This document shows, piece after piece, positions 9,675 to 63,959 of a DNA stretch of 64,000 nucleotides. The stretch comes from Amphiscolops sp. MND2022 (lineage: Eukaryota), in the NCBI GenBank assembly GCA_964187785.1, contig OZ076409.1:54686001-54750000 (forward strand), in the 5' to 3' direction. The notes beneath the pieces were generated by a model. It made no database searches and was not told the DNA's origin. It saw only the letters and a list, made by a program, of their open reading frames with translations. The position numbers were made by a program, and so were the translations under genes. Numbering within the stretch: position 1 is the stretch's first letter; every line of letters starts with the position of its first letter.

Positions 9675-10937
9675 AATAAAAAACTAATAAACATTTTTAG
9701 TCAGTGAATTGTACTTATTAGGATATTTTAGAAACATTGTTGCTCTCGTTATTTTATTAGTCTGTTAACCGTTGGTAATGATCAAGTTGATTGTAAAGCT
9801 TTTGCAAAATTGGCAAATGTAATCTGAGATAAGCAAGCTAAGCAGCAGAAAGGAAACGTGTTCAAGTGTGGAAACGTCCTATCTCGGCAACGCTGCTTGC
9901 TGGTGACAATTCAGCCAATCATGGTGCAGTGATCTAATGCTATTAATACGAGCCGATTAAGCCCAAGTGACTAAACAAAGCTGACAAGTGAAAGAATGCC
10001 AGTCAAGTGGCCGGTCCCGGCAATCTATTACTTTAATTACGTGTAGTGCGCTACTTTACTGATAATAGTAAATAGGCCTGTCTAAAGAGTACCCAAGTTG
10101 TTTTTTCTGTCTATTACAGTAAATAATGACTTTCAAGAAGTAACGATTTGTTATTCGGAGATGCTATTTTTCATGTGCCGGTCCTTCGACCGAATGTGAT
10201 AGAAGCAATGTTCATTTTGGACAAAACCCTTCGCAAGCTGAGTTGATATTAAAATCAGAACATGGAAATCAGTGCAATACTTAACCAGATGTACAATGGT
10301 TTACGTGCTCAAGTATGTTGTTTGATAAGTTGATACATATTTCTAATACCGTTATTATATTGAAGGTATTGGAATTTGTTGATGTCACTACTTAGCTGAT
10401 GTATTTTCCTTTAGGCCTGATTAGTATAAATTCCTAAGGTGCTTTGATAATGTTGACACCGCCATTAGAGTATAATGTTAATAGCAGTTGCTCACCTTAG
10501 TCATGTTCTCTTTTGGGACTTTGTTGTTTAAAATCATACGTCATTCTGTTTGATAAAACACAATTGGAATGTTGTTTTTTCTATTCAGTAATATAAAAAA
10601 TGTGAATGTCACCCTCTCCGGAGTATATACACCCTAACTTTTCCTGAGAGAGATACAATTTGTTCAGTTCTACTACCATTCACACACCTTGAAAGTATCC
10701 AAACCTGATTTCCTGATAACATATTACACTCAGGTTTTCTTGATACCTAGTACTAGAAAACAGAAGAAAGCTAGAAAATCTAGAGGAACAGAAATGTTAT
10801 CAGACATAAAAAATCTAGATATTATGTTGGGAGGCAATAACCTTAAAGGGAAGGAAGTGAGTTTAGTGGCTCCATTAGGAGACCTGATAGTCCAAATTTC
10901 AATGAACTAGAAAATATTGAAGAGGACAGGTACCCTA

Positions 10938-11799
10938 TGTAACGGCTGCTTGATCCCTTTGATGTAACTGCAGTTGACCAAACTTTACGCCGCCCTGAAT
11001 TCGGTGCTCGGCACTGCGGATCGTTACCGAACACTGCTTGCTTCTTAGATTAAAAGGACTGTATCTTGACTTAGTAGGATCCAGTGATCCCGAATTGCAC
11101 TCCTTCCTTGTCTCTTAACACGTCCAACTCTCCACAAGTTGAGAGTAACTAACTTAGTCGCCCTAAGTCTTTGGCGAAAAGTCGAAAAGAGGTGAAGAAA
11201 TGAATTGAGAATATATGTGGTCCTGAGACCCGACTTTAATACAACTTTCCGATCAATTTGTTACTATCTAACAATGGTATACATATCGTTCACAATTCTA
11301 CGGTAAATATAAGTCAAAATATGAAGTATAAATAAATGACATTTAAGTGAATTATTAAAGTTATTGGCTATGTAAACGAACCATAGTGTGAGTATAGCAT
11401 GTTGGTTAGGTGGGTTTTAAAGCATGTTTACACAATGCAAATATCATCAATTTCAACAGCGTTACATTCTAATGTGGTCATATAGGTAAATAGCAATGTT
11501 TACAATATTGGCATAATGACCTTGAATATCACACATGTGAGAGGTAAAGGGGGTTATAATGAGGGAATGACCTTGAAATTTGGCCGGTGTGTGCGTGTTA
11601 GGTACCTGCATCTGTGTACCAAGTTTCAAGGCTCAATGACTAACAGTCTTCGAGAAAACCCATTTGGGGGGGTTTCAAAGATTTGTGATGATTGGATTTT
11701 CTTCAAATTTTCATCTAAGTTTTAAGAGTTTAAGTTCTTGTATCTCAACCAACATGTACTGAATCGAGTTTCTCTGCCTTCTGATGACTGGCGCCAACA
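10938..11799 (-). repeat. 3' LTR (862 bp) of the BEL/Pao-type element
   Basis: TGTAACGG...GCCAACA; about 98% identical to 16179-17028 (about 16 substitutions plus an 11-bp and a 1-bp indel, by eye). Confidence 0.97.
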
Positions 11800-11854
11800 T
11801 TGCCGGCCCGGTTTTTCTACCGAAAAACACTTTCATAGAACAAGGGTGCCAGTT

Positions 11855-13239
11855 TCACCACTGATCTTTTAGGTTTGCCATCTTTGTCGTGCGCTTTCGG
11901 AAAACTTCTAATTTGTTTTCATGCTTGTCAGTTCTTTGCTGTGTTCTTTCTATACTGCAATGATTCTCCAGCCCATATACCAGTTCGTTGACCATAGGGT
12001 TGTTTTCCACAGATTCACATAACACAACAGAAAAATTCCTTAAAACCTTTTTCCCTTTCGGAGTCACAGTTTTCCCAGTTATAACAAATTTCATCATCCA
12101 CATCTGATATTCATTGAGTTCAACCGATTGCGTTTCCTTTGAACCTTCAAAAGCCATGATACAAAAATGCTTCTGCTTATTTAACTAGACTTCCATAATT
12201 ACTTCAACATCCGAAGAATAGATTTCCAAATAAGTCGAAAATGTCTCCAGACAGTTTCCCAAGATTTGCTCTGCTACATATTTCCTCATCAAAGTTGACT
12301 GACCGCGGGGAAGGTGGTATGTCAAACTGAGTTCGTTCTCTAATGGTTCCATACTCAAGCTTTCAATTTGGCGTTCGTGAGAGATTATTGAATTATCCAT
12401 CATCATCATCATCAGTAGATAGAGAGAATTTCCAACATTACGGCGACTGGAGTTTTTTCTTTTGTGTTCAATGCTCTCTTTGCACCCAATAGGAGAGATT
12501 TGAGTTGTGAACTCAGTCGCTGCGCTGCATTTTGCTTTTTCTTTTCTAGCAGGTCGTTTTTCGCAGCTACATCCCAGTTTTCTCCTAGAAACTGCAATGC
12601 TGTGGAGTTTGGCTTTCGCTCCTGTTTGTAGAGCGTCACCGAGCTTCTCTCACCACAAAACTCCAATTTCGTTTCATCTGGGTTTCTTACAGGCTCCCAT
12701 TGATCATGAGAAACTTCCAATTTACCAAAACGCCCATACTGAATCCACATTGCCTTGAACGGTGCAGCCGGCCCATTGCAAGACCCGTTGCTCCAACCTG
12801 TTGCTGTTGGGACTTTCAAAGAACATATTTGCATTCTGGTCACTGATAGCTTGTCTCTCAAATCATGTAGACAAAGTGGTTCATCTTGCGGTGTTCCATT
12901 CACGTTCAACTGAGCTCCTTCCGCCATTCCATGAATCAAGTTTGAGAGAGGTTCAATCTTCCAAGTTCTTTTCTTCGGTCGCTTGCCGTGGCCTTTGCTC
13001 AATTGAGTTTTATCAATGCCATTAGCCTGTGACACTGCGTCCATCCCAGAGTTTCCATTACCAGTGCAATGGTTCCATACATTTCTTTGACTCGGGATAG
13101 TTTCTTCAACAAGGTTTACTTCGAAGTCAAAGTCTGATTTCCTCTCGAAGGTTGCATTCATGGTTAGTTTATCATCTCTGGCATTGCCTTCCACGGGTTT
13201 GTCGTGCGTCACTACACCGTGGCATAGCTTTCTATACAT
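11855..13239 (-). pseudogene. Downstream gag/protease-derived ORFs of the BEL/Pao-type element (275, 75 and 100 aa)
   Basis: ORFs 12412-13239, 12185-12412 and 11855-12157 continue on the same strand up to the 3' LTR; no catalytic motif is intact. Confidence 0.5.
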
Positions 13240-13304
13240 GACTATTTCATTCCAATTGTCTTACAGTGCAAATTGCTGCTCATTCACAAAACCATAACTT
13301 GTGA

Positions 13305-15032
13305 TCAATTCAAAACGTTTGTTTCTTTCTCAAGGAGTAGAGTACTGTCATAAAACATTTTCACTTGGAATAGTTTCCCCTGTTGTACGTTCTGTAGTAC
13401 GGTGGAAACGTCTGTCCTATCTTGCAGCAGTTCCAATTGCACACTCGTTTCTTCCGAAGTTTGTTTGCTTAATGTGAATGTTAAGCTTCGATGCTCTTTC
13501 CTTGTTTTAGTCATTGCGTAGTCCAAGTTCTCCTCTGTTTGCACTACCAAGTGCTCACTCATGACCAAGTGAATCTCTTCTTCCAAAACTTGTTTTGTAT
13601 CCACGAGGAGGGTCTCTGAACGGAAGTCTTGCCAGCCATTGTCTACAACGAACTTTTCTGGCCAGTTCCACATCCATTCTGCGATTAGATTTCTCGAGGT
13701 TCCTTTGTTTGCATTGCCTTCAACATTTGTCATATTTGAGTCTTCATGTGCTTCACGTTTGATAGTTTTGTCTTGCAACTTTCCATGGTTTGGACACATG
13801 CCTGAACACTTCATCTGCTCAGGTTTCCATTTTTTCATTGTACACGTTCCTTTTGTTGTCCAGTCAAGAGCTTTGAGCAAAACCATTTCTTCTTCCTTGC
13901 CCAAAAGTTCGTCTTTTCTTTCCAGCGATTTATTGTGATCACTTGAACTTTGTTTGCTCGAAGTTTGCTTTGTTTGAGTTTGCTTCACAGTTCTCATCAT
14001 TGAACTACTTTCAACGCTTTTATGGTTCGAGCGCAAATGTGATCCAACAACGCTCTTTGAATCAATTCGCCCAAAACAGGGTTCCTTGTTGTTTCTCAGG
14101 TGTGACTCCTTGTCCGTCACATCATTCATGTTGTTCCCAGAGTGACGGCTTTGCCCACGCCGTTCAGTTCCTGCAAGAGGCTTCGTTGAGGTCGAGGATG
14201 CCTTGAAGGTCCGATAACATTCCTGCGGACCTTTGCATGGTTGCAATTGCTTTGTCACTTTCTGTGATTTTGTCGGTCTCAGCCGAGTTCCATTTCGCTC
14301 TAATTCTATTTCTTGGTTGGTAACTTGTTTAGTCCTCGCGCTTTCTTCTTCGAGCCTAGCAATTTCGAGTTTTTTTGTGAGGGTATCAATTTCATCTTGC
14401 TTCCTTCGCATTTCGGCTTTGCGTCGTCCGGCAGCTAGCTGTTCATCAATTTCATCTTGTTTCTTCATTGCTTCCAGTTCTAGGAGAATTATTCGTTTTG
14501 CATTTGATGACTTAGAACTAGCTGTTGTTCGGTTGCTCTTTGAGGTTGCTTTGACTGACCCGTTGTTGCTTTGTTCGTGTAACACTTTCACATCACTGAT
14601 TGATATAATCTTATCACAGGGGTTGGCTATTCCAACAATCCGTCGTTCTTCATCAGCTACCCTGTTTGACTGTGCCGGTGATTGATTTTCACTAGTTGCT
14701 TCTACTGAGCAATTTCGTTTCGTTGGATTGAAGCTACTTTGCTTGAGCTTCCTTGTGTAAGGGCATCTCATTGCCACGTTTGTAGAGATTCCACTTGCCA
14801 TTTGCTGAAATTTCGTTTTGTTTGTCTCGCCTTTTGGACCCTTCAACATTGTCTTTACATCAGGGAACCAATACTCCCAGTTAGCTTCTAATTGTGCAAA
14901 GAATTCTTCCCATTCAGTCACACTTCGACTGAGCTGTCTTTGCCTTTCTTCATTTGTGAGGTCCAACATAAGATCTACGTTATGCAACATTGCTTGTTTG
15001 TTTTCGCTATATTCGAATACCCAATCATTCAA
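13305..15032 (-). CDS. 575-aa gag-like ORF of the BEL/Pao-type element (coiled-coil)
   Basis: Ser-rich stretch followed by a charged coiled coil (LELEAMKKQDEIDEQLAAGRRKAEMRRKQDEI...LEIARLEEE), as in BEL/Pao gag N-termini; degenerate knuckle CSGMCPNH. Overlaps the upstream ORF 15029-15283. Confidence 0.65.
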   Translation of the reverse strand: MNDWVFEYSENKQAMLHNVDLMLDLTNEERQRQLSRSVTEWEEFFAQLEANWEYWFPDVKTMLKGPKGETNKTKFQQMASGISTNVAMRCPYTRKLKQSSFNPTKRNCSVEATSENQSPAQSNRVADEERRIVGIANPCDKIISISDVKVLHEQSNNGSVKATSKSNRTTASSKSSNAKRIILLELEAMKKQDEIDEQLAAGRRKAEMRRKQDEIDTLTKKLEIARLEEESARTKQVTNQEIELERNGTRLRPTKSQKVTKQLQPCKGPQECYRTFKASSTSTKPLAGTERRGQSRHSGNNMNDVTDKESHLRNNKEPCFGRIDSKSVVGSHLRSNHKSVESSSMMRTVKQTQTKQTSSKQSSSDHNKSLERKDELLGKEEEMVLLKALDWTTKGTCTMKKWKPEQMKCSGMCPNHGKLQDKTIKREAHEDSNMTNVEGNANKGTSRNLIAEWMWNWPEKFVVDNGWQDFRSETLLVDTKQVLEEEIHLVMSEHLVVQTEENLDYAMTKTRKEHRSLTFTLSKQTSEETSVQLELLQDRTDVSTVLQNVQQGKLFQVKMFYDSTLLLEKETNVLN

Positions 15033-16160
15033 TTTACCTTTGCAAAGAAAGAGCTTTGCTCGTCAAGCTTGTCATCCAAGTATTTAATCAGAGTCCGTAG
15101 TCTTCCAACTTGGGTGGCCACAGCGTCCACATAAAAGCGCCACACGTACCAGTCGGAATCATTTTCCAAATTTCTTGATCTGAGGTCCATCAATTCTTGG
15201 CTCTGATTTGTGTTTCTTTGATCAAATACATTTGTCATTCGAGGATGTTGCGCCTCGAGCAATTCTTTTTTTCTGGCTTTCATTTGTTCAGATTGCAGTT
15301 TTGTTTAACTGAGGGCTTTCTGACTACACACTAGTTTCTTGGCGTCTTTGTCACTATTTCTCAAACTCAGCAATTGGATAGATCTGAAGTGTCAACTGCT
15401 CAACCCAATAATCAATCGCCAATTCTTGAAGAATCAACCCAAAATGTCGATTATGCATGCCTTCTTTGACGGATTTGATTGTTTCGGTGGACCTCGTCCC
15501 AATGACTCGATCCTTTTGCTTTATTTGGTGGATATACTTGCAGCGACGTCTTAGTTCGAACCTTTTTTTCAATTAGGAACACGTTTCTCAAAGATACAGT
15601 TCGTCCCAAACTGGATTTGAAGCACACTTGCCTCCAGAGTGCTGCTAAAGCCCAACTCTCAGAGTACACATCCAATCCAGTTCCAAATCGCCCAATAGTC
15701 CAATACCAAAGCCCCAGTGTACACTTTCCCAGAGTTCCAATCACCAACTGTAGACCCAGTCTCCAAAGTTCTCGTTCGTCGTGAATAGTTGTTTCAGCTA
15801 CTTGTCGCGATTCCGTTTGAGTGCGAGGACTCTTGCAATACTTTTCGATTGCTGTTTGAACAGGATCACCATCTGCCGTTTCTACGTTTGGAAGAACCCT
15901 ACAATTAGGCTTGTCCTTCCAGCTCTCTGGGTTGCCAATGAAACCAGCACGGAAGCTCTTTCAAACTTCGTGTCACTTGAACAGATAGATGTTGTGCCAC
16001 ACGTATGATGACTCTAACTGCTCACGTGTCTTCCAACGAAATTTGTTATACACACGTGATGAAGACGACGTTCCTCTTGCTGTGTCCACCCAGATTGATG
16101 TCCACTCCAACTGTTGATGTCCGCCCAATGTGTTGATGTTCGCCCCAAAATTGTTGATGT

Positions 16161-16176
16161 CCGGGTCAGCGGACCA
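16161..16176 (-). promoter_or_regulatory. Primer-binding site, probably tRNA-Tyr type
   Basis: Minus strand reads TGGTCCGCTGACCCGG 2 nt inside the LTR. It is complementary to a tRNA 3' end ...CCGGGTCAGCGGACCA (C1-G72 pair and A73, as in eukaryotic tRNA-Tyr). Confidence 0.75.
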
Positions 16177-16178
16177 AA

Positions 16179-17028
16179 TGTAACGGCTGCTTGATCCCTT
16201 CAGTTGACCAAATTTTACGCCGCCCTGAATTCGGTGCTCGGCACTGCGGATCGTTACCGAACACTGCTTGATTCTTAGATTAAAAGGACTGTATCTTGAC
16301 TTAGTAGGATCCAGTGATCCCGAATTGCACTTCTTCCTTGTCTCTTAACACGTCCAACTCTCCACAAGTTGAGAGTAACTAACTTAGTCGCCCTAAGTCT
16401 TTGGCGAAAAGTCGAAAAGAGGTGAAGAAATGAATTGAGAATATATGTGGTCCTGAGACCCGACTTTAATACAACTTTCCGATCAATTTGTTACTATCTA
16501 ACAATGGTATACATATCGTTCACAATTCTACGGTAAATATAAGTCAAAATATGAAGTATAAATAAATGACATTTAAGTGAATTATTAAAGTTATTGGCTA
16601 TGTAAACGAACCATAGTGTGGGTATAGCATGTTGGTTAGGTGGGCTTGAAAGCATGTTTACACAATGTAAATATCATCAATTTCAACAGAGTTACATTCT
16701 AATGTGGTCATATAGGTAAATAGCAACGTTTACAATATTGGCATAATGACCTTGAATATCACACATGTGAGGGGTAAAGGGGGTTATAATGAGGGAATGA
16801 CCTTGAATCTTGGCCGGTGTGTGCGTGTTAGGTACCTGCATATGTGTACCAAGTTTCAAGGCTCAATGACTAACAGTCTTCGAGAAAACTCATTTGGGGG
16901 GGTTTAAAGATTTGTGATGATTGGATTTTCTTCAAATTTTCTTCTAAGTTTTAAGAGTTTAAGTTCTTGTATCTCAACCAACATGTATTGAATCGAGTTT
17001 CTCTGCCTTCTGATGACTGGCGCCAACA
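16179..17028 (-). repeat. 5' LTR (850 bp) of the BEL/Pao-type element
   Basis: Direct repeat of 10938-11799, adjacent to the PBS. Confidence 0.97.
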
Positions 17029-17645
17029 CCCTAATTCTAGGGAAAATAGATCAAGTAATAGTGCTCATTATTGCCATATTTCAGCTGGTACAGACTCTAG
17101 TGCTGAGTTTAGCAGATTATGAGGCGAGCTCAATTTAAGGATCTCGAGCGAAATAGATGAAGTGATGAACAGTGTCACTGTTCAAATCCAAAGGGCTCTT
17201 AATGATGCAATAAGCAATCAAGTTTTGCCCCAAAATAAAAAGGTCCTCAGGGTCGGTTCAGGACAGATGACACAGAAAGGATAGAACGTCTCGACCGAGA
17301 GACCGGAATGGAACACCGAAGGTAATCCTATTCAGAAAATCAGGAAAAGTTCAAGGAGTGAGCCTTTCTGTAATCAAAATCTGTGACATTTTCAAAAACG
17401 CAATCAGCAGTTTATGGATCAAAAAGCCTTCATATGCTCAAAAAGGCAATAATTTTGCTTTTCGATACTTTTCGTTTACAAGTATCGTCCAGCTTCTAGC
17501 TATTTTGATAAATATTACAGGCAGTTTTACGACAAAATAGAGAAGAGAACAGAAAGCCCAATTTGAGCTCTAAAGTAACAAAGTTGTTGAAATGCGCGCA
17601 ATACTTTTTTTGAAATGAAAACCCCCATAAAAGTGTTGAGACACC

Positions 17646-19759: not shown

Positions 19760-19895
19760 GAATGTTGCTCTTTACAGTTCAACGGAAAGTGTCAATGATG
19801 ATGTTTTTGATCTTTTAAAATGTTGCTCTCGACAGTTCGCAACACGTATAGTTGAAATTTTGATAAATAGAACAGTTGCTCTTGACAGTTCGTGA
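19760..19895. repeat. Three degenerate ~58-bp tandem units
   Basis: Core gttgctct-N-(t/g)acagttc at ~19763, ~19822 and ~19874. Confidence 0.6.
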
Positions 19896-20182: not shown

Positions 20183-20382
20183 NNNNNNNNNNNNNNNNNN
20201 NNNNNNNNNNNNNNNNNNNNNNNNNNNNNNNNNNNNNNNNNNNNNNNNNNNNNNNNNNNNNNNNNNNNNNNNNNNNNNNNNNNNNNNNNNNNNNNNNNNN
20301 NNNNNNNNNNNNNNNNNNNNNNNNNNNNNNNNNNNNNNNNNNNNNNNNNNNNNNNNNNNNNNNNNNNNNNNNNNNNNNNNNN
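20183..20382. other. Assembly gap (200 N)
   Basis: Run of N. Confidence 1.
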
Positions 20383-23374: not shown

Positions 23375-23470
23375 ACGCTGAGAAAGCCTAATAAAAAATT
23401 GGGAGTTTAGAACTGTCTCGTAACGCTGAGAAAGCCTAATAAAAAATTGGGAGTTTAGAACTGTCTCGTA
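23375..23470. repeat. Perfect 48-bp tandem duplication within an interspersed repeat
   Basis: acgctgagaaagcctaataaaaaattgggagtttagaactgtctcgta x2. The flanks (23000-23830) resemble repeats at 45450-45900 and 47830-48110. Confidence 0.9.
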
Positions 23471-24567: not shown

Positions 24568-26780
24568 TGTTACGACTTGTACTTGGGTCGTTATTTAAGG
24601 TAGAGTTTATCTTCACAAATCACGTTGGTGTGTAGAAAGTTCTAGAATCACCTTCCACAGTGTTTTCGCTCTCCTGTCTTACGTTCTCTCCTGCTTTAGA
24701 TTTTAACAGTTTCAACTGTTCCTTTTGGGATTCTATCAACAATCCTTTGATTTCCAACGTTATTTCCTCTTTTAAAGTTGCTCTCAAGCTCTCCAGGAAG
24801 CTATTTTCAACTCTGGCTGACTTAGCACGGGAGGGACCCGCAAACATCACGTCTTCTTCACCTAGGACGAAATTTCCTCAAACGATTTGTCATTTCCTGT
24901 GAAATCAGGGCCAACTTCAGTTAATTCCCTGAGTTCACGTCGACATTTTGTCTAGATTTGAGCACAAAATTTCATTCTGACATTAGTCATCACTCACGGT
25001 CACATCATTCCATTCCGGCGTCTTTATTCCATTCCAAGCAGGAAGTAGATTTTTTTTCATCCTGTAAAACCGGAAATGTTTCCCTGTTTTACTGCTTTGG
25101 TTCGACGGAAATTTGGCGCGGAGATAACGCTGATGTGAACAACTAATACCAGATTTTCAATTTCAACTTGGAAAATGTAATGACTAATTTACAAAATGAT
25201 CGTTCGAATGATGCACGGGAAAAGGAAATACATCACGTTTATAAAGCGCTTAATTGTCCAATGCAATATAACAACCCAGAATATAATGTTTCTAAATATT
25301 AATTTACTTGGCAAATTATGGGTTAAAGATGCGACTACGTCGACTTGTCCCACATTGAACATTACAGTGGGGTAACCGGCAACGAAAATGCAGATTTTAC
25401 TCGTTGTGCGGCTCGGAAAGCAATGGACATGCATGAATGTATGGGCCAAAAATGCCTATTCGTTTCAACAATTCTAAACACCGGCATTTCGCATTAACAC
25501 GAACATCAACTTCAACATATATGTATAAGAACTGAAAGTGCCCGTTTAGACGCAACAGTTAACTTTAACACAATGCTACTATTTTACAAACAGAATACAA
25601 ATATTGAGATGTGATAGTTTGAAAAATGACATGACTATAGCGAATTACAATTCTACAGGTGGTGAGAAAATCCAACCTAACATTTAACAAATGACAATTA
25701 TCATTCGTTTTGGTGGTACAGCACCATAACTTGCAATTGTGAATAATTTAGCACTAGCATTCATTTAGGCCACGACGAGGTGACGACTTTCTGGCCCAAT
25801 AACATATAAAAGATTAGATTAGTAAAAGGACAAAAATACGCATTTTAAAATACCTCTTTATAACAGAATACATTTTTTACACTCCACATTAGTATACACT
25901 GTGACTTTTCTTTGTACCTTACTAAATTGTTTTGCTACTAAAAAACTTAGGTCTGCGGAATATTCCTGTTGATTGTCGACGTAGATGTGACGTAAATCTG
26001 AGTTACTTCTATTCAATCACTTTGTAATAAGTAGTGTGATTATAACAAGAGGATAAGATCTCTTTTTCTTCTTATATTTGCTTCTATAGTCGTGAATTTG
26101 GGCTAAAATTATCTAATGTTTCCTTGCTAAATAGCGGATCTTTTCAACTAAATATCATCCAAACACTTATTTCCATAAACGTGTGACGTAGTCTTGACAC
26201 GTTTATAGCTAACTTGGCAGGCTGCCTAGTTTGACGAGATGCTGACGAGTATTTTAGAATGTAGTTTGGCTAGCTTCCATAGTAATGACGTAGCGCTGAC
26301 GTCACAGTTATTATAATATTGGCTACCGCGGCCATCATTGTTTTATCAACGATATGTATTTGTGTATATTTCACGCTAATTGCTTTTGAATGTGCAATTA
26401 GGTTGCCTTTTCTTAGAAAGGCGTAATCCTTTTAATGTGCTTCGCAAAAGTAATTTCTGTTTAAGATCTGTATATGTTTTTAATCTGAAGGTAATAATGT
26501 TCGCAATTTCGTTTTATTAGTTTATGGTTCCGATCAGAAGATGAATGTTAATTTAGCTTTCAGGTTGAGAATGTCTTTATTTTTGGCGTGACTTAAACGT
26601 CCTGACGAAAATGTGTGAAATCATTTCAATCTGCTCAGTTTTGGTGTTCGTTGTCATTGTTAGATTTTAGTATAGTTTTTCTCACAAGTCACAGTTTACT
26701 TGTTAAAGGTTAAGTTTAATAGTTAAAATGCCAATTCAGGAATCTTGATGAGCATCCATGTCTTCTGGCGGACTGTGACA
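24568..26780 (-). mobile_element. Solo LTR (~2.2 kb) containing a gag-leader-like ORF fragment
   Basis: TGTTACGAC...TGTGACA termini. Homologous to 61648-63959 (shared ORF ENS.LESLRA.LKEEIT.EIK.LLIESQ and non-coding block 24981-25190 vs 62350-62570). Flanks CTTAG/TTCAG match 3 of 5, a possible aged TSD. Confidence 0.75.
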
Positions 26781-27600: not shown

Positions 27601-28166
27601 CTGTAAAATGAAACATTCCTTAGTCGGTTACAGAAAAAATCACAAAATCAAACAATTGAATCATTTATAACAAGGTTTTTTCATTAAAAATAGAACTATA
27701 GTTTCAGCTATAACTATGATTGAAAACTTTTCATCCCGAAAACTTACTTATTCACTAACTATTTTGAAATTTAAATCAAAGATATGACATTTTATTCAAA
27801 GAGATATTTTGTAATAGAAACAATGAAATTTTTTGGCAGAAGTCTTTGTTTGAAGCAATCACTTGCAAAGACGATGAAGTTTAAATTGATAAATTTTTCA
27901 ATTGTCTACAATGGCCAAAAAGAACACGAGAAGACGTTTCAGACACCAGAAAATGTTTTTAAATAAATGGTGTCATTATAGTAGAACGACCATTCTAGTT
28001 CTCGTAGAAATATTTGTTCACGTCTACCTCCTCCTCCTTTATTCTACGTCCAACAGCCTCCTTGACGTTCCTAAATCAACTTCCTTGATTCTGCTCACAC
28101 AACCAATTTGATTCAAAGCTACAAAGAATTTCAAAATTCATCCCACTAAAAAGTTTTTAAACTCAC

Positions 28167-28451
28167 GTTTCTGCAAAAGGAACTTTGGAGGAACCATTGT
28201 TACTGAATGAAGGTATGTTCCCAGTGCTGTTTCCTTTTCCTCTGTAAATGTCGAATTCCTCCACAGCTAGTGGGTTGGTTTGACTACTCGGAAGTGATTG
28301 AGAATTTTTCACCAACTTCTTCACGTGAATTTCTTTATTAGGCGCCTTCTCATATGACACAACTGCGAACTCAATCAAACTCGCAAAAACGAAAAAGAAG
28401 TTGACAATGAGATACAAGTCGGCCATCTTCAAATCTGCAATCCCGGGAAAC
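28167..28451 (-). CDS. Cys-loop channel exon (M2-M3 loop, M3, intracellular loop)
   Basis: Acceptor tttttcag, donor gtgagt; FPGIADLKMADLYLIVNFFFVFASLIEFAVVSY; 285 nt, phase 2/2. Confidence 0.93.
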
Positions 28452-28892
28452 CTGAAAAAAACTGTTAAACTCATTTTGAGCTACTTTGAGTTTGGTTTTC
28501 CTCACGCAAAACTCAATCGGAGTCATGAGGAAGCTCCATCGACATTATGGATGACTTTCACATTCACGCACGTTCATTCCATTTTTTCAATGATAAAGTT
28601 CGTATTTCTCAGTGAAAAGACCATGTAGTAGAAGCCTATTGGCGATCGATTACCGACTAAAACGATGGCACTGAAGGCTCAAAAAGAACAAAGACTTGTG
28701 ACCTTACCTCAGAGTATTAAGAAACTTCAGCAAAGGACACTTTGAAATTCAAAAAACGCGGTTCCCTAAGAATAACATCAAAGATATCATAAGGGGAACC
28801 TTTTAGGAGCAGATTTTTTTCGATAAAAGTCGCACAGTGTCAAAAAACCAGCGAGGGACATTTATCTTAGTCTAGCTTTGTAAAAAAGTTTC

Positions 28893-31325: not shown

Positions 31326-32868
31326 TGTGATAATCCTCCTCATCAGATTCTTCGTTAAAGATAAGTGTTGCATCTAATGTTGTATCATTCTGGTGTATAG
31401 GTTTAGCGGGATGCCTTAATTCTCTCTTATCCGAGGCTTTGAGGGGGATATCTTCGTTTTCAGAGTCTAAACTTTCATTATCAGATGCGTTAACTCTTAT
31501 AGACCTTTTACCCCCGGATCCAGATGGTTGCATGTTTCCAATTTTGTTTATCTCTGATCTAGGATTGGTTGTCATAGATGTGCTTTTACTGAGTAAAAGC
31601 ACATCTATGACAACCAATCCTAGATCAGAGATAAACGAAATTGGAAACATGCAACCATCGGGATCCGGGGGTAAAAGGATAAAAACTAGGCTAGTTTTTA
31701 TTTCCAACAGAATCGCATTTAGTTTGTTCTCCATTTCCTCTCGCATCTTAGTAATTCTATCGTTGTTTTTCTGTTCGAAAATCTCGGTCCAAGCTTGAAT
31801 TTCATTACTGACTTGGCTAGGTTCAACTAGTCCGGGTCTCAGATCAACCTCACCTAAACTTTCTTGACTTTGCGAATTAACATTAGTTTAAGTTTCATTA
31901 CCTTGGCTTGGAGTTTCAACAAGTATTCCACTTGTTTCTCTCTCCGGGGTCGGAGTCTCTAACCTTCTGGACCTTCGATTCCTTCTGTTTCCCGTTTTGC
32001 TCAAGAGGAAAATTGGATTGAAGTGCAAAAAGAATTCATTCGTCAAAATTGTGAAAACAATTCGGGTGAAACAAAGAGTTATCAAGGAAACTGCATTTAC
32101 AAAGTTTGTGTTTACTGTTTTGAAGCTACTGTCTCTGGTACCAGTTATATTTCAACTGACGTATACTGCACTTTTACAAATGAAACAATCATAAAGCACG
32201 ACACTCAATTTTAGGGTTGTCAGTGATTCGAAAATGCTATAAATCAACAAACGTCAGGGTGACGTAATTCTATTCAAAACTTACAAATAGTGATTGCACG
32301 ACTTCCAATAATCTAACTGTACGAAAGCAACGAGTCCCTGGAAAACTGTAGGTTGCCGCATATACGTCATCCAGTTTTCCGCATAGTGACGTATAATCAA
32401 CTCTTATTAAAAGCACCAAAAATACATGTTATAAGCACCAAACCGCAGTATGACGCATATACGTCACTCGGATTACCGTATGATGACGCATACTCATCAA
32501 CACTAAACTCACGTAGTAACGTGTCATTAACAATCTGTTCACAATATTAGTTCAGAAATAACATCAAACCATTCTAAATCCAAAGTTTGAGATTGCATGT
32601 GATCATTCGTGTCAACAAAAGATGAAAGCATCAATGTTTAGGCTCTTGTTAAACTGTAATCATTAAGCAAATAAGACTAAGAAATTTACATGACATTTCC
32701 AAATTACGAACTGAAAATTAAAGCAGCATAAAAACAAAAGGAGAGAAAGCTGGGATTGTTTAAAAGTTTCAGGTTATTGAGTTGTTTGTTCCTTCTCTTG
32801 AAGATGACAAACTGTTCTCGTTTAGGGTTGTTGCCCAACAGCTCCAGCACAACTGTGGGGTTGTGACA
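31326..32868 (-). mobile_element. Solo LTR (~1.5 kb) with gag-leader-like ORF
   Basis: TGTGATA...TGTGACA termini; flanks GAAAT/GAAGT (4/5 TSD). The minus-strand ORF (RRNRRSRRLETPTPERE...REEMENKLNAIL...EESDEEDYH) runs to the LTR end. Confidence 0.8.
31504..31678. repeat. Near-perfect palindrome, 87-bp arms with a 1-nt spacer
   Basis: Centre G at 31591; two mismatches between the arms. Confidence 0.97.
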
Positions 32869-35053: not shown

Positions 35054-36570
35054 TGTCGCGGGCGGCCGCCTGCGATGGAAACTGGTACTCTGTAAGTTAT
35101 GACTACCGGCAAGCCCTGCCCAGCACTGATCCGCTGAATTAGAAACTCAAAACTATAAAACTATTATGAAACTTTATTTTACTCTAGTTCATTTAATATT
35201 TCCTTCGTAACCAATTCGACTTTGTGTATGAATAAGTTATTATGTATAACCGAAATTCAACATGTAACAGTGCTTATTTAGTTGATTTGTTATTGTTTTG
35301 TTATGTTGAAGCATGTAAAGTTATTTGAATTAGTTGATAATTGGACACCAAGGCGTTCAGTTAAAGGAAACGAGTTCGAATATTTCCTCTTCTGTTTCAT
35401 TGGACGCTCAATCCGCTTACAATTTATACCAATCAGAGTGCGGTTTTCTAATAATATTTAACGCTCTACTATAATTCGACTCAATGGCGATGCGCCTCTG
35501 CCTTGTTTGTTTTAATGTACAAAATGCGGCATTTGGACACTGAGTCCAAATTTGAATAAAGACGGTTCTTGATACTCATTCATTTAACTAAAGGCGCTAC
35601 TTGAAATCTTGGAGACCTAAACGCGCAGTCTATAACTCCTCTGTCATGGTTGATGAATGGACCCTTAGGTTGTTAATCCACGTGTAAAATATGTGTTGCT
35701 ATACATGTAATATTGATTTCACATGTTAATATCATGTAAGCGTTTTCCATAATCATAAGTAACATGGCCCTCAAGGTCACGTAAACATTTTCGGCCGCTA
35801 CCCCTTTGATGACTATATTTAGGACAACACGTCACTAAGTTGTTATTTTTAGATGCTGTCATTCTAAAAATAAACTGATGACGTCCTAAAATTTGATTGT
35901 CATGGTGGGGCAATTATAAATATTAGGGACTCATTGTCCCAAGGACCAGCTATCTTATAACCTTAATTCACAACAGTTTATACTTTTGAAAGTACGCTGA
36001 AAACAATTCTATCAACTATATTGTTGGTGAAGTTTATTGGAGTAATTTGAATATTTTCTCCAGTACATCCACAAGAAGACAGAAGGCAAAAGCTGGAAAA
36101 TCTAGTGAGATGAGCATGATGTCCGATATGGATAATTTAGACCTTATGTTAGGAAACGGAGACTGAAATCCCATAGAAAGAGAATTAGACGATGCTATTG
36201 AACAATCTTCAGTCCAAGGGGGAATTGAGACTAATATGCGCCAAGGGGTTGATTATAGAGATTTCACCTGTGAAAATGATTCATTTAGACAAATTGATGT
36301 CAGACAGTTTTTCGGGACCTTTTCAAATGAATTTAAACTCAGATTGTCCCAAGAAATGGACTCAATGATGTCCATGATGCATAGCCAAATAAACAGAGCT
36401 ATTAGCACTGCCATTGCTGAAAGGGTCATTCCGGAGATTCAAAATATTGTTAGTTCGATGCCATCTTCAGGGAATAGGGACACTGAGGCAAGCATGTCCC
36501 CTAATAGTCAGGAGAATAAGAAAAGTACATCCGAGTTGAAAACAAAGATAACAAAGAAGGACTCACGGTC
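35054..36570 (+). mobile_element. Truncated LTR-like unit with gag-leader-like ORF, related to 10689-17388
   Basis: STRRQKAKAGKSSEMSMMSDMDNLDLMLG...LRLSQEMDSMMSMMHSQINRAISTAIAERVIPEIQ parallels STRKQKKARKSRGTEMLSDIKNLDIMLG...LRISSEIDEVMNSVTVQIQRALNDAISNQVLP. A possible TG start is at 35054. Confidence 0.6.
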
Positions 36571-37408: not shown

Positions 37409-37664
37409 TGCTTCAGATCATTTGAACTCAGAAAATATACTTTCCCTTTTAGTCGACGCTCACTTATAAAAAAAGAGCAGACTATAGTTGTAGCTTCTTG
37501 AAGACCCCACAGTTTTGATTGATAAAAGTTCGATATAAAATATCAAACTTTTATCAATCAAAACGGTGGGGTCTTCAAGAAGCTACAACTATAGTCTGCT
37601 CTTTTTTTAGTCTGCTCCGACTAAAAGGGAAAGTATATTTTTTGAGTTCAAATGATCTGAAGCA
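37409..37664. repeat. 256-bp intronic palindrome (foldback/MITE-like)
   Basis: Arms of ~125 bp around an AAA spacer at 37537-37539, with a few mismatches and one short non-matching patch. Confidence 0.93.
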
Positions 37665-43640: not shown

Positions 43641-44608
43641 TTAGGGTTGTCAGCAGTGTGCAACTTTTTCAAAAAAACCCGGAACAAAAATATGGTTTTT
43701 TGTTGTTTCCAGTTGAGTGAAAAGTGGTTTTTTAGTTTTGCGTATCTGTTTGGGTACTTTTGGCACTGTAGAAATGAGGAACGTTTAACTATAGTGTCTT
43801 TTCGCATGTTTAAAAATCTTTACTTTTTTGAACTTTTTGAATCTTTTTGAGTGTCAAAATGGGAAGAAAGACAGTGAAGAAAATCAGAAGAATATCGTTC
43901 AACGTGTATTTTCTAATCAGCTACTGTCAAAACAAGGTACAAGATATTTCATTATGAAAAGTTTTGAACAGGAGCGCTGCATCCGACCTAGTTGCAGTTT
44001 CGGCCGGTAGAACTATTTTTTCTAGATTAACGTCATGCTTCAATTTCTGTCGATCAAAATGTACAATATTCTGACCTAAATAGATTATGCCCAAACCAAA
44101 ATATATAAGAGCGTTAGTTGCAAAGAAAAAAGTTGTCAGTTGGTAAGAATTGAGGACCCAGGTTTTGCCCCAAAAGGTAAAAATATAGATGCGCTATTTT
44201 CGAAATAAGCGTAATATTTTAACGTTTTATCCGAAGAACTTTCCGTTCTGTAACAAATATTGCTATTTGCATGTTTAAATTCATAATTATTAAAAGTTTG
44301 CTACTCACTAAAATTGACCCCACAACATAATGCCAGGGAACAAACCCATTGAGCTACTGGAAATCTATTTTTTCCATTCAGACTTAAATGCAATTTAAAA
44401 CAGAGGTGAGATTTCTTGCGCAACGTGATCGAAATACTAGAAGTGCCAATATTACTTTAGGGTAGCTCGATCTTATCTGGAACGTTTCAAAGTTTGCCTG
44501 AATGTTTTGGCACCTAAAGTAACTCTCTGTTGACTCAGTAATCAATCTAATTATTTGATAACTAGTAAAAAGATCCATCTACATGAGTACGAATTAAAAG
44601 TTACTAAC

Positions 44609-44939
44609 AGCTTTCGAAGCATGCGTTGCACAGTTGTACGTCAAGGGGAAAGTATTTGAGTTTGAGGTCGCATCTGATTTTGAGCAGAAGTCTGTGCGAA
44701 AAGAAAATTTCACCCGTTTTCTTCAGCTCCGTGTAGTAGGTCTTGGACAGTATGCCAGGCTGACTCACGTCCACAGCGTCTATCCAAAACACGCTAGGCA
44801 GCCAGATCAAGTCTATATACTCTTCCGACAGCTGGATCTTATCGCTGTTATTTCCAAACTCGGCAGTCACGTAATTGTAGACATCTATCAGTCGCTCGTC
44901 TTTCCAACTTTGCCGGAAGTACATGTCCAGTGATATTTG
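44609..44939 (-). CDS. Cys-loop channel exon (loops D, A, E and the Cys loop)
   Basis: Acceptor ttttttcag, donor gttagt; LDMYFRQSWKDERL, IWLPSVFW, and signature C-x13-C CDLKLKYFPLDVQLC; 331 nt, phase 0/1. Confidence 0.96.
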
Positions 44940-53685: not shown

Positions 53686-55915
53686 AACAAGACGCCCGCT
53701 GACCAGCAGGATATTTTCCGTCCAAACTGTTCAAGCAATGACATATTTTTGAGACTCAGGAGTAGCCATTACACTATGAAAACGCTTAGAGGTTTGATGG
53801 AAAAAGGTTTGACACTTTTTAAATAAAGTTATGCCATTTCAGAAGGAAACACTTTAAGAAGACACCAAACACCTATTTGTTTTTTGTCGGATTGTGTGTA
53901 ACCTAACCAATCAAACTTTCTGTAAATTTGCGTGAAAGTCCCAAAAATGTCAAAAATAGTAGATTTTTGCTTTTCGACAACTTTGCGGTCATTTGGGGAA
54001 CTTTTATAAGAAACTGTAGATGTCTTCTCAAAAACGCTTTTTGGATAACGAGTCCACTCATTCTTGAATTACAAAACTGCTCGAAACGTTTACATAACAG
54101 TATATCAACATTCCAAAAACAAAAGAAAACGGATTTTCGCTAAAGTTCAAATCATTCTGACGAACTTTTTGCATACATAATTGTAGATTTCTTTTTTGGA
54201 CTTTCTACATGCCTACTCAAAAAATTTAGACCTTTAGAATTTTACGAAATTATGGAAACGTTCAATAGAAATTCACTATTTTGTCAAACAACTGCTAAAA
54301 CTTTTTTCGACTATGTTGGGGTCATTTTGAGGCTCTTTTCTAACGTGAAACTGCAATTCACCTGCAGTGTGAAGCAGTGATTTTCTCATCAGAAACCAAA
54401 CTACATACCTGATTCTATCACCTCGGAATGTTTCGAACCATTTAACTTACCAATATTCTCAAAAATGATACTCAAATAACATGAAGAACCTACATAAAGT
54501 GGAATTTTTAGGAATTTTCGACAATTTTTGTGTCAAATTAAAGCTTAATTGTTTATCAGAAACTGGCACATATCCCATCAAAATGCCTACAGGAGAACGC
54601 CTTCAGTTGATGTTGAACCGTTTCAGAGTTTTGATCCATGAAAAGTTTGAAGGTTTTACAAAAGTTGCGTTGGAAAATACAAAATTGTAAAAAAAGTAAT
54701 ATTTGTTGACTATTTCGTGGTCCTTGTTGCAATTTTTTTACAATACTGCATTTATCTCCGCAAACAACCCTATTGGTTCGCTGTTGATCGTATTCAACGT
54801 TTTATTCCACGAAATCTGTAGAAATTTGACAAAAGTTGCATAATTGGTTGAAAAATTGGTACCTTTTGAAGTTTCCGTCATTTTTGGTCGCAAATTGAGC
54901 GTTTTTTTCAGTAGAAAACGTTTTCTACTTCTTACAAGCCACTCTGACAACGAATTTGTTCCTTGTTGAACGTCTTTGGTTTTCTAGGCTACCAAGTTTT
55001 TCGAAAAGTACACAAAAACTGCATAACATTTTCAAAAACCTGAATTTTTTGGTATTTTTGTCAATTTCGGTCTGAATTTATTGCATTTTTCCAGCACAAA
55101 TTGCTTTTACCTCTTCAAAGAAGACTCCCGGACAACGATGTTTTCCTTGTGAACGTCTTTGACATTCTAAGCCACCAAGTCTATGCAAAAAAAGACAAAA
55201 ATTGCATAAAATTTTCAAAAATCTGAATTTTCAAGTATTTATGTCAATTTCGGTCTAAATTTGATGCATATTTTCTAGCAGAAATTGCTTTTATATCTTC
55301 AAAGAAGCCTGTCGGGCAACGAATTTTTTCTTTTTTGAACGTCTTTTTGACATTCTAAGCCACCAAGTCATTCGAAAAATAGACAAAAACTGCATGAAAT
55401 TTTCAAAAATCTAAAGTTTCTGGGATTTTTGTCAATTTCGGTTTGAATTTGAGGCATTTTTACAAATCAAATTGCATCTATAACTTCGACGACGCCTCTT
55501 GGACAACCAAATTTTTCCTTGTTGACTGTTTAACTTTCTAAGCTAGCAAGTGTATCAAAAATTTGACAAAAAGTGAATAAAAACCGTAATAATCCGAATT
55601 TTTTTGGAAATTTTTTCCATTTCGATCGCAATTTGAGGCATTTTCTCTCTATAAAATTGCAGTTATTTCTTTGAAAAAGCCTCTTGGATAACAAAATTTT
55701 TCTCTTTTAACATTCAAAACCACGAAATCTGTCCAAAATCTGACAAAATTTGCAAAAAAACGGTAAAAATTGGAAAATTTCGATTTGAGTACTTACCAAA
55801 AAGCCGCTTTCTGTCTGTCACTATCAAATAACCCATCTACAATTGTTCGAATGCTACTGATATGTTCAATCTGTTTGTCTATATGTTAGCTAGTGTTGTG
55901 GAAAAGCATGCACCC
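53686..55915 (-). mobile_element. HINE-like element carrying a ~185-bp minisatellite array
   Basis: End aacaagacgcccgct...ggatattttcc is shared with 33133-33171 (opposite strand); gtggaaaa and ctgtctgtc lie near the other end. Confidence 0.45.
54760..55780. repeat. About 5 diverged tandem copies of a ~185-bp unit
   Basis: Recurring accaagt...aaaactgcat...tttttgtcaatttcggt at ~54991, 55174, 55363 and 55545. Confidence 0.85.
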
Positions 55916-56219
55916 GTCAAAAAATATTTCTCCGAAAAAGGACCCCTAAACTTTTCAAAGAATCCTGGTATGACAGCGAGTGCAAAACCTTAACCCAGAC
56001 ACGCCAAGCAGCTTACTACGAATACTGTAATAATACCTCTGCTCTAACCTGGTCTACGTACTCAAAACTTGGAAATCAACTTTCTAAGGTACTAAAAGAA
56101 AAGCAAGAGAAATTTGCCTGGAGCTAATTTTCCTCTCTGTGCACCGCTAAGGAGAGATGGAATTTCCTAAATTCCGCCCGAGGGCAAAATGAAAAGTCGG
56201 TCAATCTTGCAGCTGTGAG

Positions 56220-59125: not shown

Positions 59126-59500
59126 GGTTCTAGGAAATTACGCCCAAGGAAATTACGCGCAAGGAAATTACGCCCAAGGAAATTACGCCCAAACGGAAAA
59201 TACGCCCATTGAAACTAAGCTATTCAAAGCGAATAACAGCGTTTATTTTCAGGTTATTATTTAAAGAGGTTAGCATGTTTGTTGTATTGCTCGGTCGCTT
59301 CGCTCCCTTCGCCAAGTAGCAACATTGAGGCATGGCCATATGGCACGTCGCTTCGCTCCTGCATTTAGAGCACTAGAAGTGTGTGAGCATAGCTGATTAC
59401 ATTATCGTAATTTCCTTGCGCGTAATTTACGTTTGGACGTAATTTCCGTTTGGGCGTAATTTGCTTGGCGTAATTTCCTTGGGCGTAATTTCCGGACACC
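59126..59500. mobile_element. 375-bp MITE with tandem-repeat TIRs and 8-bp TSD
   Basis: TSD TTAATTTC at 59118-59125 and 59501-59508; termini GG...CC; about 5 copies of the 15-mer GGAAATTACGCCCAA on the left and inverted copies on the right. Confidence 0.88.
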
Positions 59501-61505: not shown

Positions 61506-61647
61506 TTTTTTAGTCAGCGCCATTTCCTTTGAAGGAAAAAGTGACTATTACAGTGACTAGTTTTTTCGTCAGACAACAGAATGTGTTTTTCAGAATTTCT
61601 AAACTACTGGATCGGCAACCCGAAACGCATCTAAGTTAGTGCAAAGG
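61506..61647 (+). mobile_element. 5' part of a HINE-like element interrupted by an LTR
   Basis: tttttagtcagcg...gact.ttacagtg.ctagttttt matches the reverse complement of 45880-45937; 61620-61647 matches the reverse complement of ~23668-23695. Confidence 0.65.
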
Positions 61648-63959
61648 TGTTACGACTTACATCCGGGTCGTTTTGTGTTGAGCTTATTCTAACTGATCTA
61701 GTAGGGGTGTAGAAATTTCTAGTTTCGTTTTCTAACCCATCTTCGACATTCTCTCTAATGTACTCCCTTGTTTCAGGTCTCAGAAGTTTCATCACTTCCC
61801 TTTGGGATTCAATTAAGAGATTCTTAATCTCGGAAGTAATCTCCTCCTTCAGAGATGCTCTCAAACTTTCTAGGAGACTATTTTCAATTCTGGGGGATTT
61901 TGGTTTCGAAGGCCCCGCGGTACTAGCGTCCTGTTCCGAAAAACAATGATTTCCTACTACTACTGTCGAAACAAAACCATCACTTACATTTTCACTATTT
62001 TCCTGTTGGGTATTCTTTCTCTTCTGACTTCGGGTTGTAGACATTTCGATGAAGAAAAGATTTTTGAATGAGTTGAATTTCTTTTCAAAGTTTCAACGGA
62101 GTTGAATTAGGATAGAGTTGAGACAAGCAAGTTTAAGCAATTGATTATCGCAAAAGGCAAAAGACTGAGTCCCTTAATCATCAAATTTCACTGTATTTAT
62201 ACCCTCCCAGCATCATTTGATCACGGCTATAATCCCTAATTTTCCTCGAACAATTAGTCATTTCCTGTATTTTCGATGAAAAAATCGCGAAGTTCCCAAA
62301 TTTGCGTCAACATTTCGTCAATTTTTAAGACACGACAATTTCAAGCTAGCATTAGTCATCAAACATGATCATATCATTTCATCCCGGCGTCCTTTTGCTT
62401 CCTCCCAACCAGGAAGTAGATATTACTTCAGTCTGTCAAACCGGAAATGTTTCCCTGTTTTCCTGCTTTGGTTCGCGGGAAATTGACGCTGAGATGACGC
62501 TGACGTGAACAACAAATACCTGATTTTGAATTTCAGCATGAACGAAAATATGACTAACTCTCAAATTATGGTTACTTAAACGATGCTAGGAACGATATTT
62601 TTATGAATTTGGACTCTTTCTTTTCGTTAGGGACGAAATTAAGATCACTGTACCAAATATATTCATCATCAACAAACTTGACATGTCGCGACAAGTACGA
62701 CAAGCTCTACAAAATTAACAACAACATTTGTTAAGTAGCAACGGCAACGCAACGCATTTAATGAACAGCAACGATGAATTAATATGGAAAATATAATCAC
62801 TATCATGTGAGTACAAAATTGTGAAGTATATGATAATACACTTCCAGTACAAAATATACTTTAGTTGAAAGTATAAACTGTGATTTTCTGATTATTTTAC
62901 TATGAATTCCCATAGTGGAAAAATGGCTTATGTAAGGGAAATTCCATGTTGTTGAAAAAATGCAAGACTATTAGTTAACGTGGATTTGAACTATCCTATA
63001 TGTGTCAAATCTACTTTAAGTTGGAACCTTAAGTTATAAGAATACCGCCTCTTTATTTATTTTACGAACTGAAATAGCCTGCATTCGTTTTCTTTTAGCA
63101 TAATAACAACCTTAGTGCGATGAAACCTTAACTGATCTTGTAAATTCATCTATTTTGTTCAATCTCATAAACTTGTCAAAGTCATGTTGACGAGTTTTCT
63201 TGGCAGAATTTAAGCTTCATAAACTTGTCAACGTCATGTTGACGAGTATTTTAGAAATGAGTCTCTCGCTAGCTGCCGGAGCAGTGACGTCACAGTGGCG
63301 GTAAATTGGAATGATTTCTAGCAATGCTATTAGTATAGGCGGATAATTGGAATGATTTTCTGGTACGCTTATGCGAGGCAGTGACGTCAATTGGTATACC
63401 TTCAACTTGTCTGCTTCTTACTGACGACAAATATACATGTATTCTTATTTCTTTCGCCGCTTTGTTTACTCAGCGCAGTATTGACGTCCTAAACCACTTT
63501 AATTGCTGTTCAAAGAGTAATTAAGCTGCCTTTCTAAGAAAAGGCTTAGATCATTCGGTGTGCCATCTCAGTGTGTTTTCTATTTTAGATCTGATTGATG
63601 TTCTTTTGGGAGATGATTTTGACTACGTTTTCATTTAGATTAGACTATGATTTCCTTGTTTTTAAAACGTATTTTAATTTAGTTTTCAGGTGGCGAATGT
63701 TGCTATTTTGACGTGGCGAGTACGTCTTACCGGAAATGCGTGTAATCATTCTGGCTCATTTCATTCTCTGTTTTCATTTTCATTCAAAGTTTGCGCAACG
63801 TAGATGTATTTTTACATTTCTAGTCGCAGTTTATTTCAAAGTTAAAGTTTTAGAGTTACCAGTTAAAATAAGATTTTGGGAATCTCAGATTGCCTCCATG
63901 TCCTCTCCCGATCTTCAATCGTCGGCAACCACAAGCCAGACCGGGAGCGGGCTGTGACA
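61648..63959 (-). mobile_element. ~2.3 kb Gypsy-type LTR with internal ORF (62044 to the LTR end); probably the 3' LTR of an element continuing past the window
   Basis: TGTTACGAC...TGTGACA termini; ATG-initiated ORF MSTTRSQKRKN...DPDVSRN ends at the terminus; homologous to 24568-26780; no TSD, and the interrupted repeat does not resume on the right. Confidence 0.78.

What the first reader, a model, noticed from the sequence alone, without database searches (positions are those of the whole stretch)
10689..63959. Three LTR families place the start of a gag-like ORF inside the LTR, running to the terminal CA
Seen: five units of three sequence families (10689-17388 and 36060-36570; 24568-26780 and 61648-63959; 31326-32868) each hold a basic-start (STRxQK or RRxRR), coiled-coil ORF in the LTR's 3' few hundred bp. 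In the four intact units the coding-like sequence runs to ...TAACA/TCACA/TGACA. Established: gag normally starts downstream of the PBS. Inference: translation starts in R/U5 and reads through the LTR end and PBS. Solo LTRs would therefore disperse promoter + ATG + ~130-200 codons that run into host DNA, a potential source of chimeric genes. The 62044 ORF is still open and ends in the flank (SRN|TFALT*).
Basis: partly seen in the sequence, partly recalled or inferred. Interest (0 to 1): 0.75.

Follow-up and report, generated by a model that had tools for sequence, protein, structure and literature searches.

The report
Gag gene begins inside retrotransposon LTR
In a very large family of retrovirus-like jumping genes, the reading frame of the shell protein (Gag) begins about 100-215 codons inside the terminal repeat and runs unbroken through the primer site, so the protein's first quarter to third is likely made from the repeat itself, a much longer version of a layout known from yeast Ty1.

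Summary
The core inference holds. The five units are LTRs of Ty3/gypsy elements (PR-RT-RH-IN, 5-bp TSD, tRNA-Leu PBS). In 5' LTRs elsewhere in the genome the LTR frame continues through CA|TGG into capsid and zinc knuckles (132, 183, 189 codons inside the LTR). The LTR part is under purifying selection in replicating lineages (dN/dS 0.11-0.14, no shared indels) and decays neutrally after insertion (0.84). The layout is lineage-wide: 7,527 exact junctions; 24 of 30 sampled are open for at least 100 codons upstream. A TATA-like box lies about 150 nt before the start. Corrections: two units are 3' LTRs, not solo LTRs; two have wrong boundaries; only 62044 keeps start codon and open frame. Translation from the LTR ATG is inferred (no RNA run was listed), and the junction itself makes a rival in-frame ATG. 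Chimeric host genes are unsupported: read-through is 3-47 codons. Precedent: Ty1, with at most about 31 codons. This scan noted the same layout earlier in this genome (e1-8580103, e1-9174308) and in others. Verdict: new variant of a known kind, interest 0.5.

The parts
9583..10937 (+). Unit A: 5' part of a 3' LTR (about 1.7 kb net of the insert); TATA-like box at 10592; decayed Gag head begins about 10743 (start codon not retained)
   Evidence: 90% to sister LTR at G000:C1:54678945-54680678 (L171)
10938..17028 (-). Unrelated nested LTR element (863-bp LTRs, 96.8% identical, 5-bp TSD) that interrupts the unit A head
17029..17376 (+). Unit A: rest of the decayed Gag head; last 35 nt of the family LTR not recognisable
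24568..26780 (-). Unit C: probable solo LTR; a deletion of about 260 bp at about 24860-24868 removes TATA box, start codon and about the first 30 codons; head remnant 24568-24860 runs to terminal TAACA
31326..32868 (-). Unit D: solo LTR (TSD 4 of 5 matching); TATA-like site at 32149; decayed 189-codon head 31327-31995 (start codon lost, one stop, local inverted duplication 31504-31678)
35054..36570 (+). Unit B: LTR cut off about 40 nt before its 3' end; TATA-like box at 35915; decayed head about 36066-36570 (small deletion removes start codon; one stop)
61648..63959 (-). Unit E: 3' LTR (2,312 bp) of a 15.5-kb Ty3/gypsy element that continues beyond the window (5' LTR at G000:C1:54760795-54763126)
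62194..62201 (-). TATA-like box, 157 nt upstream of the unit E start codon
   Evidence: consensus match only
61631..62044 (-). Open 137-aa ORF: 132 codons of LTR-encoded Gag head plus 5 codons of flank
   Evidence: 92% to residues 1-132 of P0002
63960..64000 (-). 3' end of the internal region of element E (where a polypurine tract is expected; not purine-rich)

Best explanation
These are LTRs of a large Ty3/gypsy lineage whose gag reading frame begins about 100-215 codons before the LTR end and runs in frame through the LTR end and the tRNA-Leu primer site into capsid and zinc knuckles, so Gag is likely translated from a start codon inside the LTR. Transcription would start about 120 nt above that codon, downstream of a TATA-like box (inferred). 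The LTR part likely encodes a basic N-terminus, a long helix that may help Gag oligomerise, and a flexible linker that spans the junction (predicted). The ATG at the junction is likely a by-product of the LTR's terminal CA and the PBS's TGG. Reverse transcription copies this part of the LTR to both ends, so every 3' or solo LTR carries a headless-body Gag fragment that points into the flank and then decays neutrally.
For: In-frame read-through in intact natural copies: P0002 (132 codons in LTR, 479 aa), P0003 (183, 563 aa), P0001 (189, 562 aa). Of PBS-followed LTRs, 18 of 34 keep an intact head that crosses the junction. Every junction listed reads M-(V/L)-T/K-G in the head's frame (one copy has K for M), and the TGG frame is closed by a stop one codon later. 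Unselected sample, first 30 of 7,527 exact junctions, 24 LTR clusters: mean stops in the 130 codons before the junction 1.5 in the gag frame versus 15.7 and 9.0 in the others (control region 8.0/8.5/8.8); 16 of 30 stop-free versus 0 and 0; 24 of 30 open for at least 100 codons. Selection in three families of 30 copies: variants shared by at least 3 copies give 129 synonymous and 67 non-synonymous (dN/dS 0.13, 0.11, 0.14), singletons 0.66, 0.56, 0.82; no shared indel in the head versus 10, 1 and 11 upstream (binomial p 4e-44). The start codon is kept in 29, 28 and 25 of 30 copies. TATA-like site 130-185 nt upstream in 10 of 24 versus 2-3 of 24 in control bins, and 151-157 nt upstream in four window units. 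The best 120 of 2,245 database hits are near full length (93-100% query cover). Sister-LTR differences give dN/dS 0.84 (17 pairs).
Against: No RNA, ribosome or protein evidence. The junction ATG is in frame and invariant, and in families E and A it has a purine at -3 and G at +4, so a shorter Gag could also be made. No conserved AATAAA/ATTAAA was found, so U3/R/U5 borders are unknown. TATA enrichment is modest (10 of 24). dN/dS counts are uncorrected for transition bias and tree structure, and families A and C were not tested. The head has no convincing Pfam, PDB or Atlas match, so its role is a guess; the model has mean pLDDT 48.
Confidence: 0.85

Rival explanations
1. Two Gag forms are made: a long one from the LTR ATG and a short, capsid-only one from the junction ATG by leaky scanning or a second transcript, so the junction ATG is functional.
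For: The junction ATG is in frame in every family, with good context in some; the junction lies in a predicted disordered linker, residues 136-237, so a headless capsid could fold. Ty1 makes a truncated Gag, p22, from a subgenomic RNA (PMC4551931, abstract in search listing).
Against: The ATG is forced by the terminal CA and the PBS TGG, so its conservation says nothing about use. Heads hold 2-12 in-frame methionine codons, the start included, before it, which makes leaky scanning to the junction unlikely.
Confidence: 0.2
2. The head is not translated; its conservation reflects RNA or DNA signals in R/U5, and Gag starts at or after the junction.
For: R/U5 carry cis-signals in retroelements (established knowledge); no expression data exclude it.
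Against: Shared changes fall mostly on third codon positions (37 of 64, 41 of 65, 69 of 123) and are synonymous. There are no shared indels, and stops are avoided in one frame only, across 24 LTR clusters whose head sequences are often unalignable. Nucleic-acid signals do not give this pattern.
Confidence: 0.05
3. Solo and 3' LTRs are expressed and translated, giving head-plus-flank proteins that have seeded host genes or act as dominant-negative Gag fragments that limit the element's spread.
For: 21 of 56 flank-followed LTRs keep an intact head. Database gene calls include proteins that match residues 1-184 and then run into unrelated tails, such as P0365, P0366 and P0382. The TATA-like box travels with the LTR.
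Against: Read-through is only 3-47 codons. Sister LTRs diverge neutrally (0.84). Four of five window units are already broken. The database tails are automatic gene calls, not expression.
Confidence: 0.15

Closest known systems
Ty1 of Saccharomyces cerevisiae (Ty1/copia, Pseudoviridae)
   Same: [quoted passage not shown] PBS mutations can be made silent for Gag (PMC5454406, passages).
   Different: Ty1 R+U5 is only about 94 nt (LTR 334 bp, R from nt 241, PBS at RNA nt 95-104; PMC5454406), so at most about 31 codons, about 14 by my recall. Here 103-215 codons and a whole predicted helical domain lie in the LTR. Other superfamily (IN before RT in Ty1), other primer (tRNA-iMet versus tRNA-Leu).
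Ty3/gypsy LTR retrotransposons (Metaviridae), e.g. yeast Ty3
   Same: PR-RT-RH-IN order, separate gag and pol frames, TG...CA ends, 5-bp TSD, tRNA PBS; best PDB match of pol is Ty3 Gag-Pol (E 1e-35).
   Different: In Ty3 the 5' PBS segment lies by the 5' UTR (PMC4974528). In long-LTR plant members such as Diaspora gag starts 873 bp after the LTR (PMC1142308, passages). Here gag starts 300-650 nt before the LTR end.
ORFs overlapping the 3' LTR: MMTV sag, HIV nef (recalled), pol of a fish V-clade element (PMC11117352, one passage)
   Same: Protein-coding sequence inside an LTR.
   Different: Those enter the U3 side of the 3' LTR from the interior; here the frame starts in the 3' part of the 5' LTR and leaves it as gag.

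Membership tests
Ty3/gypsy (Metaviridae) | Terminal direct repeats with TG...CA ends and a target-site duplication | tested here: met
   exact 5-bp TSD in 7 of 16 locus pairs, 4 of 5 matching in one more, ends unresolved in the other 8; element E TSD AAAGG
Ty3/gypsy (Metaviridae) | pol order protease, RT, RNase H, integrase | tested here: met
   gag-asp_proteas (below cut-off), RVT_1, RT_RNaseH, Integrase_H2C2, rve in that order in L175, L177, L039
Ty3/gypsy (Metaviridae) | gag with capsid domain and CCHC zinc knuckles | tested here: met
   weak Ty3_capsid, Retrotrans_gag and zf-CCHC hits below cut-off, DUF1759 above cut-off in P0002; two CX2CX4HX4C motifs read directly in P0001 and P0003
Ty3/gypsy (Metaviridae) | tRNA primer-binding site next to the 5' LTR | tested here: met
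   12-nt PBS abutting the LTR, complementary to the 3' end of tRNA-Leu(CAG); ARAGORN called the tRNA in 2 of 10 loci
Ty3/gypsy (Metaviridae) | Polypurine tract before the 3' LTR | tested here: inconclusive
   the sequence before the 3' LTR is conserved within families but not a clear purine run
Ty3/gypsy (Metaviridae) | RT phylogeny places it in a named clade | not tested
   No named reference set was available; all homologs listed were unnamed. Atlas neighbours carry gypsy-type automatic names.
Ty1/copia (Pseudoviridae) | Integrase upstream of RT | tested here: not met
Ty1-like layout (works like, not a member) | gag frame starts in the 5' LTR and includes the PBS | tested here: met
Ty1-like layout (works like, not a member) | Translation shown to start at the LTR codon | not testable with these tools
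   no RNA run listed
BEL/Pao (Belpaoviridae) | BEL-type pol domains (Peptidase_A17, DUF5641; recalled) and three gag knuckles | tested here: not met
   neither family appears among the ORFs scanned; two knuckles; only DUF1759 is shared

The most novel reading that the evidence does not exclude
This lineage has turned the 3' part of its LTR into a fast-evolving protein domain, and thousands of solo and 3' LTRs express that domain alone. The free helical heads would poison assembly of their own family's particles (built-in copy-number control) and now and then be captured as first exons of host genes.
Probability: 0.15. Interest if true: 0.8.

Novelty: new variant of a known kind. Interest (0 to 1): 0.5.

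Why it matters
It breaks the working rule that LTRs are non-coding and that gag starts after the primer site, on the scale of a whole domain and in a lineage with at least 7,527 junctions in one 1.07-Gb genome. Tools that look for gag between the LTRs will miss the first quarter to third of the protein, and gene finders will call spurious genes on solo LTRs (searches show such calls). It implies a long minus-strand strong-stop DNA (about 450-750 nt by inference) and a PBS and integrase end that must also code. It gives a testable case of a promoter, start codon and domain spread as one unit.

Tried and rejected
RNA: the look-up of sequencing runs listed no RNA holder for unit E, so no reads were laid. 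Naming the head: nothing convincing in Pfam (only weak, below-cut-off hits to unrelated families), none in the PDB, no usable Atlas hit. No fold search was run because the model is low-confidence. No complex prediction was sent. Naming the clade or host: all homologs listed were unnamed ENA proteins. Genome size and GC resemble published acoel figures (PMC9911081, passages), but this was not tested. Poly(A) signal: no conserved position in 24 heads. Head swapping between families (claimed in note e1-8580103): among 21 open copies head identity falls with capsid identity but much faster (capsid 0.88-0.93, head 0.29-0.38 between families A and B; capsid 0.62, head unalignable). The only discordant pairs involve L214, a capsid-deleted copy, so no swap was seen in this small sample. 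Literature: 10 searches found the Ty1 precedent and no description of a long LTR-encoded gag head. The search needs exact phrases and misses subscription journals and Repbase reports, so this is weak evidence of absence. No supplements were read. Rejected: that the units are all solo LTRs; that the layout is a chance property of a few copies.

Full report
Observation. The window is G000:C1:54686001-54750000 in a 1.07-Gb genome. Self-comparison shows that the five units share little DNA; only C and E match, at 76% over about 330 bp. Genome searches with each unit returned 40-41 scored matches each, from 932-2,440 candidates. These fix the boundaries: A 9583 to about 17376, split by a nested element at 10938-17028; B 35054-36570, cut at its 3' end; C 24568-26780; D 31326-32868; E 61648-63959. 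E is the 3' LTR of a 15.5-kb element whose 5' LTR lies just past the window (96.5%, TSD AAAGG). A is the 3' LTR of an element that starts before the window (90%). D, and probably C, are solo. Only E keeps its start codon and open frame. A, B and D have lost the start and carry stops, and C has a deletion of about 260 bp that removes the TATA box and start.

What the elements are. Neighbouring ORFs give protease, RT, RNase H and integrase in gypsy order, and the best solved relative is Ty3 Gag-Pol. TSDs are 5 bp (exact in 7 of 16 pairs examined, 8 unresolved, 1 near). The PBS abuts the LTR and complements the 3' end of tRNA-Leu(CAG) (tRNA called in 2 of 10 loci). The exact junction CATGGTGACAGGAG occurs 7,527 times, against 1 for the reversed control.

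In 5' LTRs the LTR frame continues through A|TG GTG ACA GG into capsid and zinc knuckles. Intact natural examples have 132 (P0002), 183 (P0003) and 189 (P0001) codons inside the LTR. Among the loci of families E, D and B, 18 of 34 PBS-followed LTRs keep an intact head that crosses the junction. The A and C copies seen use the same frame but are broken. I then took the first 30 junction matches, chosen by PBS only and so biased to young copies but not by frame. They fall in 24 LTR clusters. Stops in the 130 codons before the junction average 1.5 in the gag frame and 15.7 and 9.0 in the others (control 8.0, 8.5, 8.8). 16 of 30 are stop-free, against 0 and 0, and 24 of 30 are open for at least 100 codons. 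Heads measure 84-215 codons, the shortest probably clipped by damage.

Selection. In 30 copies each of E, D and B, variants shared by at least 3 copies are 32/16, 37/17 and 60/34 synonymous/non-synonymous (dN/dS 0.13, 0.11, 0.14). Singletons give 0.66, 0.56 and 0.82. No indel is shared inside the head, against 10, 1 and 11 in the LTR just upstream. Differences between the two LTRs of one element arise after insertion; they give 26 synonymous and 85 non-synonymous or stop changes, dN/dS 0.84, in 17 pairs (Fisher p 5e-13 against the shared class). So the head is conserved as protein while elements replicate, and not afterwards. These counts are uncorrected for transition bias and tree structure. 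Between families the head changes far faster than the capsid.

Mechanism. Shown: frame continuity, purifying selection, retention of the start codon in 82 of 90 copies. Suggestive: a TATA-like site 130-185 nt above the start in 10 of 24 sampled heads versus 2-3 in control bins, and 151-157 nt above it in four window units. Predicted: a 63-residue helix in the head and a disordered linker across the junction, in a model of mean pLDDT 48. Inferred: transcription start about 120 nt above the ATG, translation from it, and a role of the helix in oligomerisation. Against: no expression data; no conserved poly(A) signal; an in-frame ATG made by the junction itself, whose invariance is explained by the LTR end and PBS but whose use is not excluded.

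Chimeras. 21 of 56 flank-followed LTRs keep an intact head and read 3-47 codons into the flank. Automatic gene calls of this shape exist in the protein databases. Nothing here shows that they are expressed or kept by the host.

Comparison. Ty1 has its PBS inside GAG (PMC4974528, passages), with R+U5 of about 94 nt (PMC5454406, passages), so the layout is known at a much smaller scale and in another superfamily. Other papers seen as passages only: PMC1142308, PMC11117352, PMC11302176, PMC9911081, PMC3601003, PMC13524379, PMC9503155, PMC7175516; none of the passages seen describes a long LTR-encoded gag head. Ten searches found no such description, within the limits of exact-phrase search of open-licence papers. 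Earlier notes of this scan report the same layout in this genome and in others; I reached the reading before consulting them and did not reproduce their head-swapping claim.

Verdict. A real, lineage-wide feature; a new and much longer variant of the Ty1 layout in Ty3/gypsy elements. Translation from the LTR is very likely but unmeasured, and the chimeric-gene consequence is unproven. Interest 0.5.

Noticed in passing
window 10938-17028: Nested LTR element on the minus strand (863-bp LTRs, 96.8% identical, 5-bp TSD) with 561-aa and 275-aa ORFs that hit no Pfam family and no match to this lineage's pol; possibly non-autonomous.
   Followed up: partly
window 1-4127 and L171 (G000:C1:54676001-54686000): Decayed pol with a 3.2-kb tandem duplication (90.5%). 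The upstream LTR is itself preceded by about 170 bp of 3'-internal sequence, which suggests tandem or recombinant elements sharing an LTR.
   Followed up: partly
window 5984-9674; L033, L036, L042, L174, L176: Extra ORFs on both strands between pol and the 3' LTR, none with a Pfam hit. Earlier scan notes read the antisense ones as a disarmed transposase; not tested here.
   Followed up: no
window 63960-63990, 9560-9582; L174, L184: The sequence just before the 3' LTR is not a clear polypurine tract in any of the families looked at.
   Followed up: no
window 31504-31678: 175-bp near-perfect hairpin (97%) made by a local inverted duplication inside unit D; absent from the family's other copies except for a partial similar event in L112 and L113.
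   Followed up: partly
window 37409-37664: 256-bp palindrome, 91% self-complementary.
   Followed up: no
L214 (G000:C1:3823873-3826886): Copy in which the LTR-encoded head stays open for 504 codons past the junction but runs into protease-like sequence, lacking the capsid: an in-frame internal deletion.
   Followed up: no
proteins P0173 and P0189: Two pol homologs of this lineage carry a precomputed dUTPase domain, PF00692.
   Followed up: no
G000:C8:35587099-35643637: Dense array of tRNA-Leu-like 3' ends, period about 296 bp in part; 931 matches to the pattern genome-wide.
   Followed up: no
window 28163-28474 (-) and 44604-44924 (-): Short ORFs that resemble exons of a Cys-loop ligand-gated ion channel (recalled motifs, not tested); the LTRs may lie in its introns.
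   Followed up: no
window 54946-55644; 20183-20382: 183-bp tandem repeat, 3.8 copies; a 200-base run of N.
   Followed up: no
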